A stretch of 39,556 nucleotides of DNA from a virus (Duplodnaviria; Caudoviricetes). A model generated the notes under the pieces. It was not told the origin of the DNA. It searched no databases and saw only the letters and a list, made by a program, of their open reading frames with translations. The stretch lies in the IMG/VR virus record IMGVR_UViG_3300007511_000050, positions 1 through 39,556 of that record. One strand, written 5' to 3'. The position numbers and the translations under genes were made by a program. Within the stretch, counting starts at the first letter, position 1. Each line of letters opens with the position of its first letter. Below are positions 20,842 to 39,556 of the stretch, one piece after another.

Positions 20842-22007
20842 TGTCTTTCTTATATAAAGATGGAAAATACAGTACGACTCGCGACAGCTTTGTGGGAAGA
20901 AAAGCTTACAAAGAAAATGCTAAGTTAGACCAGGTTCAAGTTCTGGATACATGGTATCAGTATCCAAGTTATGGACTTCTTAACAAAGATTTCGAACCCG
21001 TTATATTGAATACTGACGAAACAGGTGCTAACTTAAACATTTTTGGACAATATGCTGGAGAAGACCTGCGCGCAGCCCCCTTTGTCGCAGAGGCTTTTGA
21101 CGACTTTAGAACTTATTATGTTAACACCACATTGGAGAAAAACGTTGACTTTCCTTTATTTATAGATCAGGTCATACCAAAGGTTGCTTACTTGTCTTTC
21201 GATGAGCAATATCAAAATTATGTAGCATCAAATATGAACACTTTTGCTTCTTTGGTTTTGGAGAAAATTTCGTCAATTGATCAATTTAATGAAGAATTGT
21301 CTAAAATCATACAAGGAAATATACTTAAATTTCCAATAACTAAGTCCGGTTTCTTGCTCTCCCAACAATGTCCAATAAATGTTTCAGGTCTCTGTGTCGA
21401 GCTAGCGATTTTGGACTTTAATTCAGATACAGAAAAAGCGAAACTATTTGACACAAAGGAATTTCAGTGTTATGCTGAGGTTGCAAATGTTTACGGCTTC
21501 TATGTTGACAAGAACGCGCCATGGAGATTGATAGCTAATTTGCAGAGCCCCATAATGAAAGAATACATAGACAGGTACAGAAGAGGCACAGACACTGACA
21601 TAATTTTAGATAAAATGTTTAGAAGTAAAACACAGTACGAGGATATTTCTAGTGTTTACTATTTCCATGCAGCTGTATTCAATGAGATGTTAGATATTTT
21701 AGAATTGCAGGCATCGTATTCAATTTCGGAAGAAGATTTAATATCATCGACGTTGAGATATAGAATGTTAGAAACAGGTGTCCCTATGGATCAGTTTGAA
21801 AAAAACAGAAATAATGTTTTAGATTTACACAACATATATGCTTCTAGGCATCCTTTTGATCCGCTGAAACAAGCATCCGGAAAGATCGGAAAGATTTGTT
21901 CTGAAAAATTGAAAGAAATTTATCTTGCAAAATCAAATATAAACAGTTATAATGAGACAACATTAAAGGAATATAGTGATTTTACAGACCCTAGATATCA
22001 AAGATAA
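20841..22007 (+). CDS. Hypothetical protein
   Basis: 388-aa ORF coupled to the upstream gene by TAATG. No function recognised. Confidence 0.65.
   Translation: MSFLYKDGKYSTTRDSFVGRKAYKENAKLDQVQVLDTWYQYPSYGLLNKDFEPVILNTDETGANLNIFGQYAGEDLRAAPFVAEAFDDFRTYYVNTTLEKNVDFPLFIDQVIPKVAYLSFDEQYQNYVASNMNTFASLVLEKISSIDQFNEELSKIIQGNILKFPITKSGFLLSQQCPINVSGLCVELAILDFNSDTEKAKLFDTKEFQCYAEVANVYGFYVDKNAPWRLIANLQSPIMKEYIDRYRRGTDTDIILDKMFRSKTQYEDISSVYYFHAAVFNEMLDILELQASYSISEEDLISSTLRYRMLETGVPMDQFEKNRNNVLDLHNIYASRHPFDPLKQASGKIGKICSEKLKEIYLAKSNINSYNETTLKEYSDFTDPRYQR
21925..21953 (+). promoter_or_regulatory. Sigma70-type promoter
   Basis: TTGCAA-N17-TATAAT inside the 3' end of the upstream ORF, followed by TAAGGA and a GTG start at 21976. 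Confidence 0.65.
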
Positions 22008-23106
22008 CTGCACCGGTATTTTCCATAATGATGAATTTTTGCTCGACGGCTTTCAAGAGCTGTTAGATCAATACTCTTTAGCCTGGAAACATTCCCCAAT
22101 GTTGGATGACGAAAAGTACAAGTATTTGTATTTGCTTATAAAAGAGGAAGATCTTTCTTCGTACTGCCATGACCCGGAGCTTTTCATTACATATCGGAAA
22201 AAACTAGAAGCCCACCAAAAGGCAGCAGTTTCTGCAAAAGTTAGTTTGCAAGACACCTGTTTTTTTGATTTGCTACCTGAACATCAATTATTGAAGTGGT
22301 TCAGAGTTCGAGCTGGAGCCATGGACAATTTGCAAAAAACAGTACCCTTTCAAGAAGATTATGACATCTTACATAAGGCACATGTACTAACAACGACTAT
22401 TGCTAGACAGGATATTAACTTCGAGGGTAAAGCAGGTAGAGTTTTGTATAACATTTTCGGGTCGGCAACAGGAAGACTAACAACTCGAAGAGGCTCAGTC
22501 CCAGTTTTGACCTTAAAGAGAGAACAGAGAGAATTGATTAAGCCTCAGAACGATGTATTCGTTGAGCTAGATTTAAACGCTGCAGAAGTAAGAACGTTGA
22601 TAGCTCTTTCAGGCCGAGAGCAGCCACAGGGCGACATTCACGAGTGGGTTGTGAAGAATGTGTTTGATGGAGAGAAAGAGCGCACAAAAGCGAAGGTAGA
22701 GTTGTTTGCCTGGCTGTATAATCCTTCGAGTTCGAAAAGTCAATTTGACCAAATTTTTTCGCGGACAATTTTTCGAGATTTTTTTGCCCCTGAAGACCAA
22801 GTGCTTACAACGCCATTTGGACGAAGACTTGCCGTAGATGAAAGAAAAGCACAAAATTACTTGCTTCAATCAACAACATCCGATATAGTTATACAAAACG
22901 CGTACAAGATTATGAAGATGCTTAAAGGTAAAAAGTCTAAAATAGCGTTCACATTACACGATTCGATTATTGTTGACATGGACAAAAAAGATGCTATAAT
23001 GTTAAGAGATATAAAAGAGCAGTTTGAGGAAACACCTTGGGGTCCTTTTAGAAGTACGTGTAAAATCGGTAAAACATTTGGTGATTTAAAGGATTTGGTG
23101 ATTTGA
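21976..23106 (+). CDS. Miniature family A DNA polymerase (polymerase domain only)
   Basis: TGRLT, motif A ELDLNAAEVR, motif B RTKAKVELFAWLY, TPFGRRL, NYLLQST.SD and motif C LHDSI. Only 376 aa. Confidence 0.8.
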   Translation: MILQTLDIKDNCTGIFHNDEFLLDGFQELLDQYSLAWKHSPMLDDEKYKYLYLLIKEEDLSSYCHDPELFITYRKKLEAHQKAAVSAKVSLQDTCFFDLLPEHQLLKWFRVRAGAMDNLQKTVPFQEDYDILHKAHVLTTTIARQDINFEGKAGRVLYNIFGSATGRLTTRRGSVPVLTLKREQRELIKPQNDVFVELDLNAAEVRTLIALSGREQPQGDIHEWVVKNVFDGEKERTKAKVELFAWLYNPSSSKSQFDQIFSRTIFRDFFAPEDQVLTTPFGRRLAVDERKAQNYLLQSTTSDIVIQNAYKIMKMLKGKKSKIAFTLHDSIIVDMDKKDAIMLRDIKEQFEETPWGPFRSTCKIGKTFGDLKDLVI

Positions 23107-23942
23107 AAACAATATTGGGCATAGGTACAGCAGGCAGCAACGTTGTAAGGCAACTTGGCGAACACAAGGTGTATAAACCATACACAATTTGTACCAAAAA
23201 TCAAAAAACAACAAAATACCACTTCAACCTACCCGAACTCGACGGTCCCGAGGAATACGAGTCGATGGATATGACAAAGCTAGAGAAGTGGCTGTGCACA
23301 ATCGAAAAAAATTGCACCGTATTTCTATGCGGAGCATCCAATTCGTCGGGCATCACCCTACGAGCGCTCCACTTTCTACACCAAAGAGGTGTAAAAATGG
23401 ACATTGTGTATTTTACGCCCGAGATCGAGGTTCTTTCTGAGGAGAAAACTTTATGCGAAAGGGCTGTGAAGGGCGTTTTGCAAAATTATGCTCGAAGTGG
23501 CCTATTTGAAAAAATTTGTCTCGTATCCAACCTCCGGTTGGAGCAAATCGCGGGATCGACGAATGTGTTTGATTATTATGATCAAATAAACCGTGTATTT
23601 ACAAGTACTTACTATATGATGGATGTGTTTAAAAATACAGAACCGGTTACTTCCACCTTTAAAAGACCAAATGCTCCTTGTAGGATAACCACTATTGGCC
23701 TGGGATCATTAGAGAATGACGATTTAACGTTTTTTCCTTTCAATCAAGAGGTGGAAGTGGTATACTATTATGGTATCAATGAAGAAAAGTTAAAAACAGA
23801 AGAAAACTTGTTCAGAACAATAACAAACACAGTAAAATCAAAAATTACAGAAGAGAGAAAAGTGAGCTTTGGGATTTTTCCAACACAATATGAAGATGAC
23901 TACATTTACGTGGAATACTTTTCTCCAAAAATTCAAAAATAA
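23103..23942 (+). CDS. Divergent tubulin/FtsZ-family protein (PhuZ/TubZ-like)
   Basis: N-terminal ILGIGTAGSNVV (T1 loop), FTPEIE, LVSNLRL and YDQINRVF align by eye with FtsZ/tubulin elements. The signature loop is degenerate (CGASNSSG). Confidence 0.6.
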   Translation: MKTILGIGTAGSNVVRQLGEHKVYKPYTICTKNQKTTKYHFNLPELDGPEEYESMDMTKLEKWLCTIEKNCTVFLCGASNSSGITLRALHFLHQRGVKMDIVYFTPEIEVLSEEKTLCERAVKGVLQNYARSGLFEKICLVSNLRLEQIAGSTNVFDYYDQINRVFTSTYYMMDVFKNTEPVTSTFKRPNAPCRITTIGLGSLENDDLTFFPFNQEVEVVYYYGINEEKLKTEENLFRTITNTVKSKITEERKVSFGIFPTQYEDDYIYVEYFSPKIQK

Positions 23943-23945
23943 ATA

Positions 23946-23974
23946 TTGACACAGATTAGAAAATAAGATATTAT
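23946..23974 (+). promoter_or_regulatory. Sigma70-type promoter
   Basis: TTGACA-N17-TATTAT upstream of an AAAGGA RBS. Confidence 0.8.
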
Positions 23975-23999: not shown

Positions 24000-25016
24000 A
24001 TGAACAGAGAACAATACGAAGACCTCAAGGTTACGATACAAAATTTTGATCAAACTTACGTGTTTGATGTAGATCCTTCGCTAGTGTATGAGGATACAGC
24101 AACTTCACAAATTAGGCAAAAAGGAGCAGTCATCAAGAAGGTTCCTGCTATGGTTGCGGATATCGAGGCAAATGGGCAAGAAATTCCCGCAGACGTAAGA
24201 GTGATGCCTGATGGAACTTTTGAGCTTAAAGATGGAATAACCAGATGGCTTTCCCAGAAGAAAATTCCAGGCGGAAAGCTCAAAGTGTCTGTATATCATG
24301 ACACAATATTTACAAATGAAGACGAGTGGACATTTCATCAAATTGAAGCAAATGAACACGAAACTGCAACATCGAATTCAAAAAAAGACATCGCTTTTCA
24401 GGTCGAAAAGCTTTGGACATCAGGCGCTCTAGAAAGAAGACTAGGGTATCGATATATAGGAAATGAAGCTCGCTTTATGAGAGAGGCACCTACGCTTTTA
24501 AAGAGTCAAACTTATAAGAGAGCTTCTGTTACCAAGAAATCACTTGAAAATTATTTAAAAAAGTGTGTCAACAGTTCATCAAAGGTAAAGAGTAGGTATC
24601 ACAATTATACAAAAGGCCCCAACGGGACTTGTTGGGAGACGTTTAGTCAACTAAACACTTTGGGGTGGTCTGGAAATAAAGCAAATGATATTTGTAACAA
24701 TATTGCAATATACGGAATGTATGACGCCGGCGAGGCAAAGGATATAGCTGGGTATGTCTGGATAAAAGCATCCAAGAATCCAAATGCGAAATATTATCTT
24801 TTAGCGTGGGTTGGCAACTTGTCCAACAAAAACAATACAGGCATCAAAAAAGAAAGACAAAGGATTTTTGATGCTTATAAAACAGAAATGCAAAATCATC
24901 CAAAGTTTAAAGTTCCTATGTTTGATGGTATCTTTTTCTTGCCACAAATTAAGACAGGCAAAGACAAGGAGATTCTACAAAAACTTTACTCGCCCCAAGA
25001 ATTAAACTTGACATAA
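24000..25016 (+). CDS. ParB/Srx N-terminal-domain protein
   Basis: QIR....MVADIEANGQEIP..V......ELKDGITRW resembles ParB boxes I and II. The C-terminal part is unrecognised. Confidence 0.55.
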   Translation: MNREQYEDLKVTIQNFDQTYVFDVDPSLVYEDTATSQIRQKGAVIKKVPAMVADIEANGQEIPADVRVMPDGTFELKDGITRWLSQKKIPGGKLKVSVYHDTIFTNEDEWTFHQIEANEHETATSNSKKDIAFQVEKLWTSGALERRLGYRYIGNEARFMREAPTLLKSQTYKRASVTKKSLENYLKKCVNSSSKVKSRYHNYTKGPNGTCWETFSQLNTLGWSGNKANDICNNIAIYGMYDAGEAKDIAGYVWIKASKNPNAKYYLLAWVGNLSNKNNTGIKKERQRIFDAYKTEMQNHPKFKVPMFDGIFFLPQIKTGKDKEILQKLYSPQELNLT

Positions 25017-25036
25017 ATAACAAAACATAGTATTAT
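25008..25036 (+). promoter_or_regulatory. Sigma70-type promoter
   Basis: TTGACA-N17-TATTAT upstream of the SSB gene. Confidence 0.8.
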
Positions 25037-25122
25037 AAGAATATGAGTTGGTCAGGATATTTGCTGACCTGCTATAGCCGAGAGTGTGCAAAAAAACAAC
25101 ATACCATAAGGAGGTAATAATA

Positions 25123-25875
25123 ATGGCACTTAATTTAGACGCAATGAAAGCGAAGTTAGATAAACTTAATGGAAAGGGTGAAGGAAAGAAGAATTTCTGG
25201 CGCCCAGAAGACGGAGAAAGCAATATTCGTATTGTTTCCACTCCAGATGGTGATCCTTTCAAGGAGAAGTTCTTCCACTATGGAATCGGTGGACAGTCTT
25301 TTCTTTGCCCGAAGCGAAACTTCGGAGATGATTGCCCAGCATGCAATTTTGCAAACAAGTTGTGGAACGAGGGTACAGAAGAGAGCAAGCGACAAGCAAA
25401 GGAAATGTTCGCAAAGCAGAGGTTCTTTTCACCGGTTCTTGTTCGAGGAGAAGAAGCTGAAGGTATCAGAGTCTGGGGCTATGGTAAGATGGCTTATGAA
25501 AAGTTGCTTACAATTGTTCTCGACCCTGATTACGGAGACATTACAGACCCCGAGACTGGCAACGATCTTAAGTTGATGTACGGCAAGCTACCCGGAGCTA
25601 GCTTTCCTCGTACTGACATTCGACCTAGGCCACGAAAGACCACCCTTTGTGACGAAGCTGTTGGTGGTGATGAAAGATGTGCGGAACTTTTGGAGACAAT
25701 TCCGAACTTTGACGAAATTTTCGAGAGAAAGACAACAGAAGAGGTGCAATCAATCATGGATCAACACCTTTCTGGGGAGTCTGGAAACGCCGAACTTGAA
25801 AAGTTCGGAAACAACACTAATACTACAACTACTGATGCAGTTGAAGATGCATTCAACGATTTGTTGAACCAGTAG
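25123..25875 (+). CDS. Single-stranded DNA-binding protein (T4 gp32-like)
   Basis: Start chosen from the AAGGAGGT RBS. FWRP..G...IR motif, His/Cys zinc ligands (HY..C...CPAC) and acidic tail DAVEDAFNDLL. Confidence 0.8.
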   Translation: MALNLDAMKAKLDKLNGKGEGKKNFWRPEDGESNIRIVSTPDGDPFKEKFFHYGIGGQSFLCPKRNFGDDCPACNFANKLWNEGTEESKRQAKEMFAKQRFFSPVLVRGEEAEGIRVWGYGKMAYEKLLTIVLDPDYGDITDPETGNDLKLMYGKLPGASFPRTDIRPRPRKTTLCDEAVGGDERCAELLETIPNFDEIFERKTTEEVQSIMDQHLSGESGNAELEKFGNNTNTTTTDAVEDAFNDLLNQ

Positions 25876-25883
25876 GATATAAT

Positions 25884-27011
25884 ATGCCTAAAATATCAAA
25901 ACTCAAAAAAGGTGCATTAGATATTGCCTCAATTCGAGGCATTATCAACAAGAAAGCTGGTAGGGAAGTGGCACATTCACTTCAGGATAATAATCCAACA
26001 GAGGTGAATGAATGGATCCCTACTGGCTCCCGATGGCTTGACGCCATCATCTGCAAAGGCAGACATGCAGGGATTCCTGTGGGTAAGATCTCAGAAATCG
26101 CTGGCCTCCCAGGTACTGGCAAGTCATTCTTGGCTGCTCAGATTGCTGGGAACGCTCAAAAGATGGGTATCGATGTGGTGTACTTTGATTCAGAGTCTGC
26201 TATCGATCCTTCCTTTATGGAGCGCGCCGGCTGTGATTTGGACAGGTTGATGTATGTTCAGGCAGCATCTGTTGAGTTTGTCCTGGAAACCATCGAAGAA
26301 TTGCTAGCTACTGGTAACAAATGGCTTTTCATTTGGGACTCCCTGGCCCTTACTCCGTCGATTTCTGATGTTGAAGGAGACTTCAATCCTCAGTCTTCTA
26401 TGGCAGTAAAGCCGAGAATCCTGGCCAAGGGAATGTCTAAACTAACCATTCCTATCGCTGATGCGAACGCTACCTTTCTAGTTCTCAATCAATTGAAGAC
26501 TAACTTGGGAGCAAGAACACCAGCCCAGGCCATGACAGAACCATATACGACCCCAGGGGGAAAGGCCATGATTTATGCTTATTCCCTTCGTGTGTGGCTC
26601 ACCGCAAGAAAAGCTAAAGCTAGTTTCATCGTAGATGACAATGGTTTCCGCATCGGATCTGAAGTGAAGGTAAAGCTAGAAAAGTCTCGTTTCGGGACCC
26701 ACGGCCGTACCTGTAACTTCAAGATCCTGTGGGGTGATGACGCCGTTGGTGTCCAAGACGAAGAAAGTTGGTTCGATGCAATCCAGATCTCTGAAAGACT
26801 TGAACAGTCTGGTGCATGGTTTACGCTAATCCACAATGATGGGTCTAAGGAAAAGTTCCAGCGCAAGCAATGGGTAACCAAACTTGAGAGTGAAAAATTC
26901 AGAGAAAGTGTCTTGACTATTATTGAAGAAGATGTTATTATGAAGTTCAAGAATAGAGAAGGCAAAGCAGACGACTTCTATGACGCGGACGATGTCCCGC
27001 CGACAGAATAG
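25884..27011 (+). CDS. recA: RecA/UvsX recombinase
   Basis: IPTGS..LD, Walker A GLPGTGKS, YFDSE.AID, WDSL, LNQL and TPGGKA motifs. Confidence 0.93.
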   Translation: MPKISKLKKGALDIASIRGIINKKAGREVAHSLQDNNPTEVNEWIPTGSRWLDAIICKGRHAGIPVGKISEIAGLPGTGKSFLAAQIAGNAQKMGIDVVYFDSESAIDPSFMERAGCDLDRLMYVQAASVEFVLETIEELLATGNKWLFIWDSLALTPSISDVEGDFNPQSSMAVKPRILAKGMSKLTIPIADANATFLVLNQLKTNLGARTPAQAMTEPYTTPGGKAMIYAYSLRVWLTARKAKASFIVDDNGFRIGSEVKVKLEKSRFGTHGRTCNFKILWGDDAVGVQDEESWFDAIQISERLEQSGAWFTLIHNDGSKEKFQRKQWVTKLESEKFRESVLTIIEEDVIMKFKNREGKADDFYDADDVPPTE

Positions 27012-27021
27012 TCACCCACAC

Positions 27022-27049
27022 AAGCCCGGCTCTTCGCCGGGCTTTTTTT
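27022..27049 (+). terminator. Rho-independent terminator
   Basis: AAGCCCGGC-TCTTC-GCCGGGCTT followed by a T-tract. Confidence 0.88.
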
Positions 27050-27062
27050 ATGGAGAATATAA

Positions 27063-28025
27063 ATGAAGAGAATGATGATAGTGGATGCGTATAACCAGTT
27101 TATCCGCGGATATATAGTAGACCCTAGCAAAAACCCAAACGGCTCTCCCATCGGCGGTATGAGGACGTTTATCAATATCCTGAACAAGCTTACAAGAGAG
27201 ATTAAACCAGATCTCATGGTTTTGGTTTGGGATGGCAAAGGCGGCAGCAAAAAGCGTCGAGCAATGAACAAAAACTACAAAGGCGGCCGCAAGCCTCCAA
27301 GGACAAACTGGTCACAAGTAGGAATGGATGAAGAAGACGTCCTAGACAACAAAGTATGGCAACAAATGAGAGTCATTCAATATCTAAATCAGACACCTGT
27401 CATCCAGTTCATGGAGAATCTAGTAGAGGCTGATGATGTCATTTCATATGTAAAGAGCAGCTCCGCTTTCACAGAATGGCAAAAAGTTATTGTGTCTGCC
27501 GACAAGGATTTTATTCAATTACTTGACGACAAGACAATTTTACACAGACCTATTCAGAAGGAATATTTGAATAAGAACTCTATAGTCGAAAAGTTTAAGA
27601 TCCATCCGACAAACTTTGCACTGGCTAGAGCTATTGTGGGAGACTCCTCGGATAATCTCCCGGGAGTCCCTCGCGTTGGTTTAGAAACTGTAGCAAAAAG
27701 ATTTCCTTTTCTAAAAGAGGAAGAGACGCACTACTTAAGTAGTATCCTAGAAGAATGTACCCGGCCAGAGAACAAACAAAAAGTTTACACAAATATTTTA
27801 GAATCAAAGGAGTTAATCGAAAACAATTATGATATTATGCAATTATCTTCGCCCATGCTATCAATTCAAGCCAAACAAGGGATTGACGATACGTTTGAGC
27901 AATATAAGCCCCACTACAATCAAACGGAAATGAGAAAACTTATGCTTCAGGATGGTGTGTTGACTGTCACTACAACAGACTTGGAACAAAGATTTAATAA
28001 CATTATCACTTCCTTTTCACAATAA
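27063..28025 (+). CDS. 5'-3' exonuclease / flap endonuclease (Pol I N-terminal, T4 RNase H-like)
   Basis: IVDAYN, VWDGKG, YKGGR, EADDVI, SADKDFIQL and GDSSDNLPGVPRVG motifs. Confidence 0.92.
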   Translation: MKRMMIVDAYNQFIRGYIVDPSKNPNGSPIGGMRTFINILNKLTREIKPDLMVLVWDGKGGSKKRRAMNKNYKGGRKPPRTNWSQVGMDEEDVLDNKVWQQMRVIQYLNQTPVIQFMENLVEADDVISYVKSSSAFTEWQKVIVSADKDFIQLLDDKTILHRPIQKEYLNKNSIVEKFKIHPTNFALARAIVGDSSDNLPGVPRVGLETVAKRFPFLKEEETHYLSSILEECTRPENKQKVYTNILESKELIENNYDIMQLSSPMLSIQAKQGIDDTFEQYKPHYNQTEMRKLMLQDGVLTVTTTDLEQRFNNIITSFSQ

Positions 28026-28061
28026 AATCTGGTATAGTATAACAAATACTAAGGAACAAGA

Positions 28062-29438
28062 ATGGAACAAGTAAATAACTTCTCAAAGTTTGGCAAATCA
28101 TTTCAAGAAGATTTGTGTCATCTGATTTTGAACGACCGAATATTTGCAGATCAGATGTTTGAAGTTTTAGATACAAGCTTTCTAGAATTAAAGCACTTAA
28201 GAGTATTTACTAGGAAAGTAAAGGAATATAGAGAAAAGTATGGAGTCCACCCCACATCTAATATCATGCATTCCATCATTCGAACAGGTTTGGATGATGA
28301 ACCAGAATCAGTCAAGGTACGAATCCGCGAGTACTATGCGAGAGTTCTTGCAAATGGAGAAGTCCCCGACGGTGCAGACTTTATTAAAGATACGGCTCTG
28401 GATTTTTGCAAAAAACAAAAACTCAAAGAAGCTCTGATTAAATCAGTTGAGCTTATTAAATCTTCTTCTTTTGATGAAGTTTCAAAAGTTATAGACAACG
28501 CCCTTAAATTGGGATCGGACAATACACTAGGTTATGATTATCTTGCAGACTTTGAAGCGCGTTTTGTTAAGAGACACCGCAACCCTATTAGTACGGGCTG
28601 GCACGACATCGATGACATTTCTAAGGGAGGTCTTGGGAAAGGGGAGCTTGGTGTTGTTGTTGCTCCTACTGGTGCTGGCAAATCAATGGTACTTGTACAT
28701 CTCGGGGCAGCGGCACTCAAGGCCGGGAAAAATGTATTACACTACACATTGGAACTTGCTGATACTGTTGTTGCTGGCCGTTACGACGCTGCTATTACTG
28801 GCGTTGAATTAAGGAACCTAACAGTATTTAAAGAAAAAATATATGACGAGATTAGAGAAATAAACGGAAAACTTATTGTTAAAGAATATCCAACTAGAAG
28901 CGCTAGTATCCAAACAATCAAAAATCACGTTGAGAAGCTAAAAAGGCGAGATTTTGTCCCAGACATGATCATCGTAGACTACGGAGACCTAATCCGACCA
29001 GAAAATAGCAGAAAAGATGAGAAAAGGCATCAACTGGAAACTATTTACGAAGAGCTTAGAGGAATAGCTCAAATTTGTGAATGTCCACTCTGGACTGCAT
29101 CGCAAACTAACAGATCTGGGTTGAACGCAGAAGTGATCACAATGGAGTCAATCTCCGAGGCGTTCAACAAATGTTTTGTAGCAGATTTCATCTTCACGGT
29201 GTCGAGAACCGTGGAGGATAAAAACACCAATCAGGGACGCATTTTTGTAGCAAAAAACAGGAATGGTCCAGATGGACTGGTGTATCCACTATTCATGGAC
29301 ACGAGCAATGTGAAGATTAAAGTCCTGCCAAAAACAGGCGAAACCGCGAATGATATTATCCAAAAATCTTCTGCAGAAAGGTTAGCAAACCTGAAAGAGA
29401 AGTACAAGATTTTTAAGAAAGAAGGAGGAAATAAATAA
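28062..29438 (+). CDS. dnaB: Replicative DnaB-like helicase (T4 gp41-like)
   Basis: Walker A APTGAGKS, TLEL, IIVDYGDLI, WTASQTNR and KNRNGP motifs. Confidence 0.92.
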   Translation: MEQVNNFSKFGKSFQEDLCHLILNDRIFADQMFEVLDTSFLELKHLRVFTRKVKEYREKYGVHPTSNIMHSIIRTGLDDEPESVKVRIREYYARVLANGEVPDGADFIKDTALDFCKKQKLKEALIKSVELIKSSSFDEVSKVIDNALKLGSDNTLGYDYLADFEARFVKRHRNPISTGWHDIDDISKGGLGKGELGVVVAPTGAGKSMVLVHLGAAALKAGKNVLHYTLELADTVVAGRYDAAITGVELRNLTVFKEKIYDEIREINGKLIVKEYPTRSASIQTIKNHVEKLKRRDFVPDMIIVDYGDLIRPENSRKDEKRHQLETIYEELRGIAQICECPLWTASQTNRSGLNAEVITMESISEAFNKCFVADFIFTVSRTVEDKNTNQGRIFVAKNRNGPDGLVYPLFMDTSNVKIKVLPKTGETANDIIQKSSAERLANLKEKYKIFKKEGGNK

Positions 29439-32646: not shown

Positions 32647-33122
32647 TGGCGTTCTTGTTGTCTCTCTGCTTGTTGTCGAATCAGCATATGGATCTAACAG
32701 ATTATCAACACAGTAATCTATGTAAGTATGAAGATCACATTAGAACAGAAGCAGAAAAAAACGGCATTAAACCAGCACTTTTAGCAGCACTTATATATGT
32801 TGAGAGTGGTTTTTATAGGAACGTAGTCAGTGAAGCAAACGCTTGTGGTCTAACACAGGTTATTCCAAAGTGGACAGGGGGCCCAGAAACCAGAGGTGTT
32901 AAGTACACTTGCAAACAACTAAAAAACCCCACAACCTCGATAAGGGTCGGCGCGCAAATACTCTCCTACAACATCAAGGTCTATGCCAAGGGCAATGTGG
33001 ACAAAGGGCTGTGCTTCTACAACGCAGGCACAAAATGTATTACAAGAAAAGGATTTTACAAAAGGTTAGGTTATGTTAAAAAAGTTAAGCGTATATACAG
33101 TTTGCTTTCTGACGATTGTTAG
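32646..33122 (+). CDS. Lytic transglycosylase (SLT family)
   Basis: IYVESGF (catalytic Glu), ACGLTQV and YNAG motifs. TAATG coupling to thyX and a short hydrophobic N-terminus. Confidence 0.85.
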   Translation: MAFLLSLCLLSNQHMDLTDYQHSNLCKYEDHIRTEAEKNGIKPALLAALIYVESGFYRNVVSEANACGLTQVIPKWTGGPETRGVKYTCKQLKNPTTSIRVGAQILSYNIKVYAKGNVDKGLCFYNAGTKCITRKGFYKRLGYVKKVKRIYSLLSDDC

Positions 33123-35142
33123 TTGCAACGACGAAACTACAACTAGGTATGGTAGCGTAGACAGTTCTCAGCGAACTGTGAGTGTTGATCTTGTTTCACC
33201 AGACATTCAAGTCGTAGAGATACCTGATATTACAGTTGATACGTGGGTAAATCCATGCGAAAATATCCCTAATACACATGTTAGGTTTTGTGATTGTAAC
33301 CCAAGTTGTTGTCAACAACAGACCTGGTACTGTCCACCAACTGGGACAGAAATACAAGCAAAGTATGCAGTGTTGGATATTTGCGACGAGACCTTGACCC
33401 CCTGCGACAGAAATAGGGATCCCACTTGTCCGCCTGCAGAAATAATTGAAGAGACAGATTGTCAGCATGCTTTTGACTGTCCTCCTGGGATAAATGAGGA
33501 CTTCACAATGTATTATGATTGTGAAGTGGATGGGAATCAGGGCCGTCAAGAAGTAAAGTGCGATAAGGGAAGATTGTATTACGGTGAGTGCATCACTTGT
33601 TTTGAAGAAGAGGAGATCTGCGATTTCCAAGACAATGACTGTGATGGAGACATAGATGAAGGGCAAAGAAATGCATGCGATGGATGCGGGACAGTACCAG
33701 AGGATATTTGTGACGGCCTCGACAATGACTGTGATGGAACTAGTGACGAACAACTCATTAGAGAGTGTACTACGATATGCAATTCTGGATTGGAGATCTG
33801 CGCAGCAGGTAATTGGGTAGGGTGTACGGCACAGAGACCAGAGGACGAGCAGTGCGACGGCGAAGACAACGACTGCGACGACCTAGTGGATGAAGGACTA
33901 AATTGTCAGTGCCCCCCATCGATGGTCGGCGCTTTGATACCCTGTATGGAGCCACCTCTTCTTTGTGGTTTAGGGTTTAAGACATGTGAGTGTGTAGACG
34001 AAGAGTGTGCAGTAACGCAAATGACTGAGTGTTTTGCTGCATGCCACTGGGTACCAGAACTTGCACAAACGGGTCAATGTGATCAGCTGATGGGGCTTGC
34101 TACAGACCCAGAGATATGTAATAACTTTGACGAAGATTGTGACTTGCTCATCGACGAACGTCTGACTAGAGAGTGTTACACAGGACCAGAGGGTACATTA
34201 AATGTCGGCGTGTGCATACCAGGAACTCAGGTTTGTAACAATGGTCAGTGGTACGGTAGACGTGAAACGGGCAACTATACGGTCGGTATTTGCTCAGGTG
34301 AAATTCTACCATCTGAAGAGATCTGCGACGGCGCCGACAACGACTGTGATGGCATTGTAGACTTTGGAGAAGAGATTCCAGAGACGGACATCTTGTTCTT
34401 GATAGACTGGTCAGGATCTATGGAGAATTATATTAACGCAGTCAGGATGGCCATGAACCGATTTGCCCAAACCTTTGAAGCAGAGGATAAATTAAAGTGG
34501 GGACTCATCGTCGGACCAAGACTTTTGCCAAACGAACTAGACAATTACGGGAGAATGAAGGAGGGTTTGATACTACAATCTGACATCGCTAGTTTTGAAG
34601 ATTTCCTAACAGCGTTTGCAAATGTTGGACAGTTTGATAATCAAACTGGAAACGAGATGTTTAAAGATGCATTACTCTTGGCAGTTAGGAGTATATCAGG
34701 GAACGTTGATTACGATTTTAATACTGCGATTTGGTCTAACAGAACAGGGTCAGTCCCAGCGCTTCAGGATTTCAAAATTAATTGGCGCCCAAATGCAGAC
34801 CGCATCATTGTACTTTTCACGGACGAGCATGATCAAACATATCTGGTACCGACGGTCTCTGACAGGGTTTTATTGCAAGCGCTTGTAACAACACCCAGCT
34901 TGAAGACTTACATATTTGCAGATGGATTTTTTCCTTGGGAAGATTATGCAATAGAGACAGGTGGAAGGATGTTTGATCTTTCTTCAAACCAAGAGCAAAT
35001 GTACAGTGATTTGATGTCTATATTGGATGAAATATGCTTAGGCCCTCAACCTGAACAGGGAACAATGAATAGAACACCAGCCGGCTTCTTCCCAGCGTCT
35101 TTGCGTACCAGATATGACTATAGATTAGGCATATGTTATTGA
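33073..35142 (+). CDS. Putative lipoprotein with Cys/Asp-rich repeats and C-terminal vWA domain
   Basis: Signal and lipobox MLKKLSVYTVCFLTIVSC, five E.CD..DNDCD...DE-type repeats, MIDAS DWSGS and LFTDE. Confidence 0.8.
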   Translation: MLKKLSVYTVCFLTIVSCNDETTTRYGSVDSSQRTVSVDLVSPDIQVVEIPDITVDTWVNPCENIPNTHVRFCDCNPSCCQQQTWYCPPTGTEIQAKYAVLDICDETLTPCDRNRDPTCPPAEIIEETDCQHAFDCPPGINEDFTMYYDCEVDGNQGRQEVKCDKGRLYYGECITCFEEEEICDFQDNDCDGDIDEGQRNACDGCGTVPEDICDGLDNDCDGTSDEQLIRECTTICNSGLEICAAGNWVGCTAQRPEDEQCDGEDNDCDDLVDEGLNCQCPPSMVGALIPCMEPPLLCGLGFKTCECVDEECAVTQMTECFAACHWVPELAQTGQCDQLMGLATDPEICNNFDEDCDLLIDERLTRECYTGPEGTLNVGVCIPGTQVCNNGQWYGRRETGNYTVGICSGEILPSEEICDGADNDCDGIVDFGEEIPETDILFLIDWSGSMENYINAVRMAMNRFAQTFEAEDKLKWGLIVGPRLLPNELDNYGRMKEGLILQSDIASFEDFLTAFANVGQFDNQTGNEMFKDALLLAVRSISGNVDYDFNTAIWSNRTGSVPALQDFKINWRPNADRIIVLFTDEHDQTYLVPTVSDRVLLQALVTTPSLKTYIFADGFFPWEDYAIETGGRMFDLSSNQEQMYSDLMSILDEICLGPQPEQGTMNRTPAGFFPASLRTRYDYRLGICY

Positions 35143-36753: not shown

Positions 36754-36937
36754 AGAAACTTATGACATTATGCCATCTATTGTTAAGAAACACGCCGGCA
36801 TGCCAGACAATTATAAAGACTTGACAACTGACCAGGAAAGGTTTATAATAGAGATGTTCCAAATTGATAGAGAAGCAATAAAAACAACGTTATTAGAAAC
36901 AGTAGAAGAAATGAAAGAATTAGTGAATGACATCTAA
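36740..36937 (+). CDS. Small hypothetical protein
   Basis: 65-aa ORF overlapping both neighbours in operon style. Confidence 0.5.
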   Translation: MKNIEETYDIMPSIVKKHAGMPDNYKDLTTDQERFIIEMFQIDREAIKTTLLETVEEMKELVNDI

Positions 36938-39556
36938 GAAAAACAACAATATCCCATTCGTAGGTTTACATGCCCATTCAGTTGCGGGATCCCCATTTGA
37001 CGCCCTAGGGTACCCGCCAGAGCACATGGACTTTGCCTATGAGAATGGTATGGATGCCCTTGCACTTACGGACCATGGCAATATGAATGGTCTAGCTTGG
37101 CAGGTTCTGCATGCCAAGAAAATGAAAAAGGCCGCCAAAGAGTTTAAGCCTATTTTTGGTTGTGAAGCATACTTTATTCCATCAGTTGCAAAGTGGAAAG
37201 AGGAGTATGAAGAAATCAAAGCAGCCTCGAAGAAGAAGTCTGATTATGAGGCCGGCAATTCGGGCACCACTGTGGAGGATGAAGGCGCATCCAAAAAGCG
37301 TATAAAATCCGTCCTAAACAGAAGAAGGCACCTTATCTTGCTGGCTATGAACCAGACGGGTTTGCAAAACATTTTCAAGATGATCTCAAGGTCTTATAGT
37401 GGGGATAATTTTTACCGATATCCACGCGTTGATTACGCACTTCTTAAGAAACACAATGAGGGCGTAATCGCAGCCTCAGCATGCTTGGGTGGCGTTTACG
37501 CTGGCAACTATTGGGAAAACAGAGAAACAGGCCCAGACGCCGTTCTTGGCGCTATGAGAGAAACCACAGCAAAGATGCAGTCGATCTTTGGCGACCGCTG
37601 GTATGGAGAGCTTCAATGGAACAACATACCAGAACAGCATGAACTTAATCAATACATTATTCAGATGCACCAGGAATTCGGTATTGACCTGATTTCAACC
37701 GCTGACTCTCATTATTATAATGCGGATGTTTGGAAGGATCGAGAACTATATAAGAGACTAGGATGGCTAGGAAAGGGTAAGCCTGATTATTTATCAGACG
37801 AACTGCCCGTTTCAGTTGAGGAGATTGGTTATGAACTTTACCCCAAGAATGGTGAGCAGATGTTTGAGTCTTATAAAAAATACTCAAAGGAGTGTGGGGT
37901 AGAATATGATGAAAGCCTGGTCCTCAATTCAATTACGAAAACGCACCAGATTGCGCATGAACGTATTGAGACGTTCTTGCCCGACAATACCGTTCGCCTC
38001 CCGGACTTCGTTGTCCCCGAGGGTTCAACTGCTGGCCAAACCCTGGCTGCCCTTTGTGTTGAGGGTCTTCGCACCCTTGGGCTCCACGAAAACCAAGAAT
38101 ATGTGGCGCGCCTCAAGCATGAGGTCAATGTTATTGAAGATCGCGGGTTTTCGAAGTATTTTCTAACTATGAAATCTATTGCAGACGTCGCCGCCGATCG
38201 ACAACTTGTGGGAGCAGGTCGAGGTTCTGCAGCAGGATCCCTCGTTGCATACGTTTTGAACATTACTCAGGTTGATCCCATCAAGTACGGCCTTCAGTTT
38301 GAGAGATTCTTAACCAAGGGCGGATCGGGTTACCCAGATATTGACTATGATGTATCAGACCCAATGGTCCTCAAGGAAGTCCTAATTGACCAGTGGGGTG
38401 ATAACTCTGTGGTTCCTATTACCAACTGGAACACGCTTCAGTTGCGCTCACTCATCAAGGACATCTCTAAGTTCTACGGTATCGAGTTCACGGAAGTAAA
38501 CAACGTAACAAGTAAGATGGTCTACGAGGCAACACCTCGGGCCAAGGCGAAGCATGGCATCACGGCTGGTGTATATGCTCCCACGTTTGAAGAATTGATG
38601 GAGTTCTCAGAGTCCTTGCAAGCATTTCTGGAGAAGTACCCACACATCAAGACTCACATTGAGAAACTGTATGGGCAGACACGTTCAGCTTCACGTCATG
38701 CTGGTGGTGTTGTTGTAGGTGAAAATCTAGATCAGTGGATGCCGCTTATCAACTCAGGAGGAGTTCGACAAACACCTTGGTCCGAGGGTATGAACGTAAG
38801 GCACCTTGAACCCATGGGCTTCATCAAGTTTGACATCCTGGGTCTTGCTTCACTTCGTATGTTGGAAGGCGCCATCGAGCGCATTCTCAAGCGCCATCAC
38901 GGAATGGAGGACCCTACTTTTGCAGATATCAAGGCATTCTATGACGAAAATCTACACCCAGAGAAGATTGATTTGGAAGATCGAGCAGTCTGGGAGAATA
39001 TCTTCCACAAGGGAAAGTGGGCAGGAATCTTCCAGTTCACAGAGTCTGGGGCCCAATCGTTCTGCAAGAATGCGAAACCAGACAACATCATTGACTTGTC
39101 GGCTATCACTTCTATCTACAGACCAGGCCCCCTATCAGCAGGTGTTGACAGAAAGTACATCGGCGCAAAGAAGGCACCGCAAGAAGTAGAATACATCAAC
39201 AAGCAGGTTCGTGAAGTAACGGAGGAGACTTATGGGTTCCTCATCTTCCAGGAACAAATCGCTATGTTGGCTCACAAACTGGGTAAGGATCTATCTCTAG
39301 ATGAAGGTAACAAGCTCAGGAAACTACTTACTAAGAAGGGTACTGATGGAATTCAGGCTGAGAAAGACAAAATCTTCGACAAGTTCAAAAAGGGTTGTGT
39401 CGAGAAAGGAATGAAAGAATATGAAGCAAGAGAATTGTGGGAAACCTTTGAGTACTTTTCCGGTTACGGCTTTAACAAGTCTCACGCTGTGTCCTACTGT
39501 GTCTTATCTTATCAGTGTGCTTATTTACTTAATTATTACCCAGCAGAGTGGCTAGC
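36927..39556 (+). CDS. dnaE: DNA polymerase III alpha subunit (family C), 3'-truncated by the window end
   Basis: Missing from the ORF track, presumably because it has no stop in the window. Segments translated by hand, all in one frame: MTSKKNNNIPFVGLHAHS..., ALTDHGNM, GCEAY, GRGSAAGSLVAY, YPDIDYD, KFDILGL, GIFQF, YRPGP, YGFNKSHA. Confidence 0.95.
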   Translation, partial: MTSKKNNNIPFVGLHAHSVAGSPFDALGYPPEHMDFAYENGMDALALTDHGNMNGLAWQVLHAKKMKKAAKEFKPIFGCEAYFIPSVAKWKEEYEEIKAASKKKSDYEAGNSGTTVEDEGASKKRIKSVLNRRRHLILLAMNQTGLQNIFKMISRSYSGDNFYRYPRVDYALLKKHNEGVIAASACLGGVYAGNYWENRETGPDAVLGAMRETTAKMQSIFGDRWYGELQWNNIPEQHELNQYIIQMHQEFGIDLISTADSHYYNADVWKDRELYKRLGWLGKGKPDYLSDELPVSVEEIGYELYPKNGEQMFESYKKYSKECGVEYDESLVLNSITKTHQIAHERIETFLPDNTVRLPDFVVPEGSTAGQTLAALCVEGLRTLGLHENQEYVARLKHEVNVIEDRGFSKYFLTMKSIADVAADRQLVGAGRGSAAGSLVAYVLNITQVDPIKYGLQFERFLTKGGSGYPDIDYDVSDPMVLKEVLIDQWGDNSVVPITNWNTLQLRSLIKDISKFYGIEFTEVNNVTSKMVYEATPRAKAKHGITAGVYAPTFEELMEFSESLQAFLEKYPHIKTHIEKLYGQTRSASRHAGGVVVGENLDQWMPLINSGGVRQTPWSEGMNVRHLEPMGFIKFDILGLASLRMLEGAIERILKRHHGMEDPTFADIKAFYDENLHPEKIDLEDRAVWENIFHKGKWAGIFQFTESGAQSFCKNAKPDNIIDLSAITSIYRPGPLSAGVDRKYIGAKKAPQEVEYINKQVREVTEETYGFLIFQEQIAMLAHKLGKDLSLDEGNKLRKLLTKKGTDGIQAEKDKIFDKFKKGCVEKGMKEYEARELWETFEYFSGYGFNKSHAVSYCVLSYQCAYLLNYYPAEWL

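What the first reader, a model, noticed from the sequence alone, without database searches (positions are those of the whole stretch)
21925..23942. Two-gene operon: minimal PolA translationally coupled to a degenerate tubulin
Seen: a sigma70 promoter (21925-21953) precedes the mini-polA, whose TGA overlaps the TTG start of the tubulin-like gene. A new promoter follows immediately, so the pair appears to be a separate unit at the boundary of the structural and replication modules. Both proteins look reduced relative to their families. Inference: they may form a functional complex, for example a filament- or GTP-regulated polymerase or a way to localise replication. I do not know of a described system like this, and it is the best candidate for a new one here.
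Basis: inference. Interest (0 to 1): 0.75.

Follow-up and report, generated by a model that had tools for sequence, protein, structure and literature searches.

The report
Phage mini-polymerase beside stripped-down tubulin
An uncultured marine phage carries a small second DNA polymerase of a type described in 2024 directly in front of a gene predicted to fold like tubulin/FtsZ but lacking the loop that splits GTP, and that protein likely acts as a static helper of phage DNA replication rather than as a moving filament.

Summary
In detail: promoter-like site, 376-aa PolA gene, 4-base overlap, 279-aa gene, new promoter. The polymerase is divPolA1 (Yutin 2024): catalytic residues invariant in 160 relatives, thumb almost gone, exonuclease domain vestigial. 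The window also encodes DnaE, the likely replicase. The second protein has a confident tubulin/FtsZ fold (Z 24 to CetZ) and heads a large phage family I found in no paper; it lacks T3, the T7/H8 catalytic segment and any PhuZ/TubZ tail, so GTP-driven filament control is unlikely. Within this lineage the genes always co-occur (79 of 79 polymerase-anchored loci) and flanking promoters are conserved. But 69 of 175 loci have genes inserted between them, the window's subclade hides a perfect separate promoter for the tubulin inside polA, and the Immutovirus sister lineage has divPolA1 with an unrelated 151-aa protein in the same slot. Best reading: an early replication unit with a gap-filling second polymerase and a non-hydrolysing tubulin-fold accessory; physical binding is an open question. 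The scan reported this pair on at least ten other genomes.

The parts
21925..21953 (+). sigma70-type promoter-like site for the polA-tubulin unit, inside the 3' end of the upstream gene
   Evidence: 10/12 match; equivalent site in 97 of 147 relatives vs 6.3 expected
21976..23106 (+). divPolA1: minimal family A DNA polymerase, 376 aa; vestigial exonuclease domain, thumb reduced to a hairpin, intact palm and fingers motifs
   Evidence: PF00476 E 8.8e-12; model pLDDT 91 aligned to Bst Pol I 316-876, Z 25.3, rmsd 4.4, 353 aligned; D199, R206, R236, K240, Y248, Q298, H328, D329 in 160 of 160, E204 in 159 of 160; hhalign to immuto divPolA1 prob 97.4
22973..23000 (+). perfect internal promoter-like site (TTGACA-16-TATAAT) in polA codons, about 100 nt before the tubulin start
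   Evidence: 12/12, best site in 12 kb; 12/12 in 14 and 11/12 in 2 of 144 loci scanned, the 12/12 ones all in the window's subclade, kept while intervening residues change
23103..23942 (+). minimal tubulin/FtsZ-fold protein, 279 aa, without T3, T7/H8 or C-terminal tail
   Evidence: model pLDDT 97; VIA-align CetZ Z 24.2 rmsd 3.0 257 aligned, TubZ 22.4, first non-tubulin 8.6; Foldseek FtsZ E 1.8e-12; column profile of 143 homologues
23946..23974 (+). promoter-like site after the pair; here it serves a non-conserved 338-aa gene, in most relatives the equivalent site serves ssb
   Evidence: 11/12
25084..29438 (+). conserved downstream block: gp32-like SSB, UvsX/RecA, stand-alone 5'-3' exonuclease, DnaB helicase
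   Evidence: Pfam and PHROG hits; same order in related loci
36927..39554 (+). DnaE (Pol III alpha), cut by the window end; the likely replicative polymerase
   Evidence: PF07733 E 7.4e-55

Best explanation
The pair is a likely early transcription unit at the head of the replication block of a large T4-like phage that also encodes DnaE: divPolA1 is a predicted active, short-patch gap-filling polymerase, and the tubulin-fold protein is likely a non-hydrolysing, static accessory of that replication step rather than a dynamic filament. Shown: the genes, the conserved motifs, the neighbours, DnaE. Inferred: with no thumb and no proofreading the polymerase would make short patches, for example filling Okazaki-primer gaps with the stand-alone 5'-3' exonuclease (a split Pol I) or extending UvsX-made joints. 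The tubulin keeps part of the guanine pocket but lacks the loop that triggers hydrolysis, so it would be a nucleotide-stabilised scaffold whose conserved surface (Y24, E50/Y52, Q127-R131-S132, Q278) holds a partner, most plausibly the polymerase or another replisome part. The sister lineage fills the same gene slot with an unrelated protein, as expected if an accessory role was swapped.
For: Catalytic residues invariant in 160 of 160 full-length relatives; thumb region 16 residues here, 34-39 in most relatives, and 353 of 376 residues span 560 of Bst Pol I. DnaE in the window and in 8 of 9 long relatives; primase and late sigma factor elsewhere in G002. No helix between H7 (155-177) and strand 195-201 in a pLDDT-97 model and no Asp above 29 of 143 in 177-194. 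Tubulin follows polA in 79 of 79 countable polA-anchored loci; polA precedes it in 139 of 155 tubulin-anchored loci, the 16 others having 2 kb or less upstream. Conserved promoters on both sides. Branch-rate correlation polA-tubulin 0.43, second to ssb-uvsX 0.59 among 10 pairs. Slot held by an unrelated 151-aa protein in 73 of 79 immuto-type loci (six end too soon) and 78 of 80 loci anchored on that protein, with no tubulin in any.
Against: 69 of 175 loci have one or more unrelated genes between the two. The tubulin has its own perfect promoter-like site in the window's subclade, which points to expression apart from polA. The whole block from the baseplate genes to dnaB is equally syntenic, so adjacency alone says little. 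The rate correlation with the upstream gene (0.37 for tubulin, 0.33 for polA) is not far below 0.43. divPolA1 works without the tubulin in Immutovirus-type phages.
Confidence: 0.42

Rival explanations
1. The tubulin-fold protein is a host-division inhibitor: an FtsZ mimic without T7/H8 that would cap host protofilaments early in infection; it shares a promoter with polA only because both are early genes.
For: FtsZ-like fold over the whole length; missing bottom-face catalytic segment with a partly kept nucleotide face is what a capper would look like (inference); own strong promoter in the subclade; phage proteins that target FtsZ are known (lambda Kil PMC3961180, T7 Gp0.4 PMC13423816; search listings only).
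Against: T3, part of the face that would receive host T7, is lost; early host-takeover genes are usually mobile (general knowledge), whereas this gene keeps one slot across 25-100% identity.
Confidence: 0.2
2. It forms an atypical filament that positions replicating phage DNA, working like PhuZ or TubZ but with a different interface.
For: Closest structures are CetZ and TubZ; genome size 160-190 kb overlaps that of phages with tubulins, 186-316 kb (PMC7950403 passage); invariant I277/Q278 and the QxYxRS patch could be a mini-knuckle and its pocket (inference).
Against: PhuZ needs its C-terminal tail to polymerise and T7 for dynamics (PMC7950403); both are absent here. Non-ATG starts in 51 of 175 fit a modestly expressed protein.
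Confidence: 0.18
3. The two are unrelated lineage-core genes held side by side by conserved gene order, and the tubulin does something outside replication.
For: Whole-block synteny; insertions between the genes in 69 of 175 loci; separate promoter; polA without tubulin in the sister lineage.
Against: Promoters bound the pair on both sides in most loci; mutually exclusive occupant of the same slot; highest rate correlation for each gene is with the other.
Confidence: 0.2

Closest known systems
divPolA1 (Yutin et al. 2024, Virol J 21:200, PMC11348598; Flavobacterium phage vB_FspM_immuto and GOV bins)
   Same: Intact palm, truncated thumb, dead exonuclease, second polymerase beside a regular one, upstream of gp32, RecA, 5'-3' exonuclease, DnaB; 155-190 kb genomes; hhalign prob 97.4 to the immuto protein.
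   Different: This subtype is shorter (370-400 vs 441 aa), keeps the steric-gate Glu (159 of 160) where the immuto type has His (116 of 118), and is followed by the tubulin. The paper's text and searchable supplements never mention tubulin or FtsZ.
TubZ (Bacillus plasmids, phage c-st) and PhuZ (Chimalliviridae)
   Same: Phage-encoded tubulin/FtsZ fold: TubZ Z 22.4 and 19.4, PhuZ Z 15-16.
   Different: 11-16% identity; no C-terminal tail, no T7/H8, eroded T4; sits in a replication block, not a partition cassette.
CetZ / FtsZ
   Same: Best structural matches (CetZ Z 24.2; FtsZ Foldseek E 1.8e-12); T1 glycines, T6 Asn (N143) and H7 guanine-pocket positions (Y159, N163) align with E. coli FtsZ (the sequence alignment itself is weak, prob 7).
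   Different: No GLGAGA T3 loop, GGGTGTG reduced to G-x-G/S-x-x-S-G, no T7 aspartates, no linker or C-terminal peptide.
Bacterial Pol I plus Pol III division of labour
   Same: DnaE, a Klenow-like polymerase and a 5'-3' exonuclease in one genome.
   Different: Pol I is split into two genes and has lost thumb and proofreading.

Membership tests
divPolA1 | Palm catalytic residues conserved | tested here: met
   D199, D329, H328, R236, K240, Y248 in 160 of 160
divPolA1 | Truncated thumb | tested here: met
   Only a two-strand hairpin (146-155) between helix 129-143 and the TGRL motif
divPolA1 | Inactivated 3'-5' exonuclease domain | tested here: inconclusive
   N-terminal domain aligns structurally with the Bst vestigial domain; no exonuclease family hit; one Asp (D7) is kept in 149 of 160; residue-level mapping to ExoI-III was by eye only
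divPolA1 | Second, regular DNA polymerase in a 155-190 kb genome | tested here: met
   DnaE in window and 8 of 9 long relatives of 144-190 kb
divPolA1 | Upstream of gp32, RecA, 5'-3' exonuclease, DnaB; homology to type member | tested here: met
Tubulin/FtsZ superfamily | Two-domain fold with core helix H7 | tested here: met
   17 top VIA-align rows are tubulin-superfamily (Z 24.2 to 11.4), next 8.6
Tubulin/FtsZ superfamily | T1 glycine loop and T6/H7 nucleotide-pocket residues | tested here: met
   G8 142, G11 115, N143 115, N163 120 of 143; mapping and recalled FtsZ structure
Tubulin/FtsZ superfamily | Signature GGGTG(T/S)G (T4) and T3 loop | tested here: not met
   G77 136, G79 73, S82 100, G83 85 of 143; window has CGASNSSG; no T3 glycines
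PhuZ/TubZ/FtsZ polymerising GTPases | Catalytic T7 loop and helix H8 | tested here: not met
   No helix in 178-194; no conserved Asp
PhuZ/TubZ | C-terminal tail needed for assembly | tested here: not met
   Protein ends five residues after the last strand; requirement from PMC7950403
PhuZ/TubZ | GTP-dependent filament formation | not testable with these tools
   needs purified protein
TubZ partition system / nucleus-forming phages | TubR plus centromere, or chimallin | not tested
   No dedicated search; conserved neighbours are polA and ssb

The most novel reading that the evidence does not exclude
A tubulin/FtsZ homologue has been converted into a polymerase subunit: it docks on the thumbless divPolA1 and supplies the missing DNA grip or a tether to the replisome, and Immutovirus-type phages use an unrelated 151-aa protein for the same job. 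This would be the first tubulin-fold subunit of a DNA polymerase that I know of.
Probability: 0.17. Interest if true: 0.88.

Novelty: new variant of a known kind. Interest (0 to 1): 0.5.

Why it matters
The polymerase is published. The tubulin family is large (809 clusters at 50% identity pass E 0.001; about 1300 IMG/VR stretches), phage-only where tested, and appears to have dropped the GTPase switch that defines the superfamily. It would add a branch to tubulin/FtsZ evolution and give a small, testable partner for divPolA1, whose role is unknown. The mutually exclusive slot occupants and the Glu/His split at the steric gate give concrete pairs to test.

Tried and rejected
Complex prediction of polA with the tubulin returned no answer (score 0.00 in two runs, mark 0.32; the tool says this is no evidence either way). 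Inter-protein mutual information gave top z 6.0 for polA-tubulin and 5.2-6.7 for four control pairs: uninformative. No fused form among 551-2000-aa proteins, a weak search. Sequence searches did not detect the tubulin fold: Pfam, PHROG and PDB blank for the window protein, 1 of 143 members hit PF00091 at E 6e-4, PF00091 rang in 0 of 5 relatives. Primase role for divPolA1 rejected: G002 has a DnaG-type primase (phrog_47, E 1e-35), although Toprim_2 rang in only 1 of 5 genomes, and the steric-gate Glu is kept. RNA polymerase role rejected for this subtype on the same Glu (established PolA motif A knowledge). Cellular origin or host: 4 hits in GTDB, all phage-type gene blocks in MAGs, one joined across an N gap; host not determined. 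No RNA holder listed. No Rfam hit. Atlas gave no usable hit for the 151-aa protein. PolB and a second PolA were not found in five partial relatives. MK892584 and LR796625 were not in the annotated collections, so the GOV members of divPolA1 were not compared directly.

Full report
What is there. The window is a 39.6-kb fragment, 22% complete by CheckV, of a T4-like myophage: sheath, tube and baseplate genes, then the two genes in question, then gp32-like SSB, UvsX, a stand-alone 5'-3' exonuclease, DnaB, class II RNR, GroES, ThyX and DnaE running off the end. Long relatives are 144-190 kb; G002 has T4-type capsid, portal and prohead protease genes, a primase and a late sigma factor (106 and 58 of its ORFs of 130 aa or more were scanned, eight ORFs spanning stretch borders were not). 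Close homologues come from Tara and similar sources, hence marine.

The polymerase. The 376-aa protein hits PF00476. Its model (pLDDT 91) aligns over 353 residues with Bst Pol I 316-876 (Z 25.3, rmsd 4.4), so it is a shrunken Klenow fragment. In 160 distinct full-length relatives D199, R206, R236, K240, Y248, Q298, H328 and D329 are invariant and E204 is kept in 159. By established PolA numbering these are motifs A, B and C and the steric gate, so it is predicted to be an active DNA polymerase. The thumb segment is 16 residues in 37 relatives including this one and 34-39 in 121 others. I checked it: PMC11348598 section 13 (read in full) describes exactly this anatomy and context in 14 phages, the only INPHARED hits are the immuto phages, and the profile matches the immuto protein at 97.4% probability. 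The polymerase is therefore already known. DnaE is in the window and in 8 of 9 long relatives, the miss being 82% complete.

The tubulin. Sequence libraries barely see it, but a model from 143 homologues (pLDDT 97) matches CetZ (Z 24.2), TubZ (22.4), tubulins and FtsZ (about 20) and PhuZ (15-16), with the first unrelated fold at 8.6; Foldseek agrees. The Atlas's nearest cluster is viral and automatically named a tubulin/FtsZ GTPase-domain protein, so databases have labelled some members. T1 glycines, N143 and N163 are mostly kept and line up with E. coli FtsZ T1, N165 and N186 in a weak alignment (prob 7); their role in guanine-nucleotide binding is recalled from FtsZ structures. T3 is gone, T4 is eroded, there is no helix H8 and no conserved Asp between H7 and the next strand, and the chain ends five residues after the last strand. 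PhuZ needs its tail to assemble and T7 for dynamics (PMC7950403 passages). The most conserved polar residues are instead Q127 (142 of 143), R131 (142), S132 (137), Q278 (140), Y24 (133) and E50 (131). I could not map them on coordinates; they may be a partner surface or an internal clasp. The family is large: 809 clusters at 50% identity.

Is it a unit? For: the tubulin follows polA in 79 of 79 countable polA-anchored loci (one of 80 ended too soon), and polA precedes it in 139 of 155 tubulin-anchored loci, the other 16 having at most 2 kb upstream. Promoter-like sites of at least 10/12 lie before polA in 97 of 147 and before ssb in 108 of 164 loci, against 6.3 and 9.6 expected from base shuffles, and before the upstream gene in 1 of 121. 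On 163 branches of an 85-locus tree the polA-tubulin rate residuals correlate at 0.43, below ssb-uvsX (0.59) and above the other eight pairs (at most 0.37); similar rate classes could inflate this. Against: of 175 distinct loci 105 abut, 1 has a short gap and 69 carry inserted genes (the first search oversampled one clade with an insert), and the inserts are of several unrelated kinds. The whole block is syntenic. In the window's subclade a perfect TTGACA-16-TATAAT is written into polA codons about 100 nt before the tubulin start: 12/12 in 14 and 11/12 in 2 of 144 loci, kept across V/I/L-D-M and x-I-M codons while the residues between change. The tubulin can thus likely be transcribed alone here.

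The sister lineage. Immuto-type divPolA1 (441 aa) is followed not by the tubulin but by an unrelated 151-aa protein, in 73 of 79 loci (six end too soon; these loci are 58-100% alike) and in 78 of 80 loci anchored on that protein; none of these loci has the tubulin. The tubulin profile rang in 0 of 6 such genomes and in 4 of 4 controls; the 151-aa protein rang in 0 of 5 tubulin genomes (single-sequence query, no positive control in that call). The two polymerase subtypes also differ at the steric gate: His in 116 of 118 immuto-type, Glu in 159 of 160 tubulin-type. So divPolA1 does not need the tubulin in general, but each subtype keeps its own fixed neighbour in the same slot, which is what a swapped accessory would look like and also what lineage-specific core genes would look like.

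Mechanism. Shown: genes, motifs, context. Inferred: DnaE replicates; divPolA1 makes short patches with the separate 5'-3' exonuclease or after UvsX strand invasion; the tubulin-fold protein is a static accessory of this module (0.42). Rivals: host FtsZ capper (0.2), atypical positioning filament (0.18), unrelated neighbour (0.2).

Literature. PMC11348598: passages, section 13 whole, and a term search of three supplementary files (file 1 cut when stored; figures not held, so Fig. 4B labels were not seen) gave no 'tubulin' or 'FtsZ'. PMC7950403 and PMC12926913: passages only. Others: search listings only. Seven searches of the open-access library showed no description of this tubulin family or of the pairing; subscription papers are not covered. 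The scan itself holds at least ten earlier notes on the same pair in other genomes; they are not independent evidence.

Verdict. A real, conserved neighbourhood of a published polymerase type and an apparently undescribed, catalytically stripped tubulin family. New variant of a known kind; interest 0.5, rising to about 0.9 if the two prove to be one enzyme.

Noticed in passing
window about 25048-25070, between the promoter-like site 25008-25036 and ssb: Six-pair hairpin with an 8-nt loop in the ssb leader, all pairs kept in 15 of 15 loci aligned, two pairs with changes on both sides; no Rfam match. Possibly an autoregulatory element as for T4 gene 32 (recalled).
   Followed up: partly
window 24000-25016: 338-aa gene with its own promoter-like site, present only in the four near-identical loci L001-L004 among the first 79; its N-terminal part resembles a ParB/Srx motif by eye (recalled), no Pfam or PHROG hit.
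   Followed up: no
L263-L341, L348-L427; NC_055915.1 1346-1801: Highly conserved 151-aa protein of no known family that follows immuto-type divPolA1; about 1300 IMG/VR stretches. Those polymerases have His at the steric-gate position, which may change sugar selectivity.
   Followed up: partly
L044:7687-8007 and similar loci: About 105-aa gene often inserted between polA and the tubulin; looks like a MazG-type pyrophosphatase by recalled motif, not confirmed by Pfam.
   Followed up: partly
L131:7204-9132, L175:1466-3391; window 33073-35142: A Cys-rich repeat plus VWA protein like the window's 689-aa gene sits between polA and the tubulin in two relatives.
   Followed up: no
L344-L347: The phage block appears in four GTDB MAG records; in L346 it is joined to bacterial genes across an N gap, likely mis-scaffolding.
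   Followed up: partly
polA starts across loci: Non-ATG start in 91 of 150 polA genes versus 2 of 164 ssb genes (automatic start picking), suggesting low polA expression.
   Followed up: partly
G002 (L093-L094): Large cluster of glycosyltransferases and nucleotide-sugar enzymes, plus GAPDH, IMPDH/GMPR, PurA, ClpP, GroEL and UvdE.
   Followed up: no
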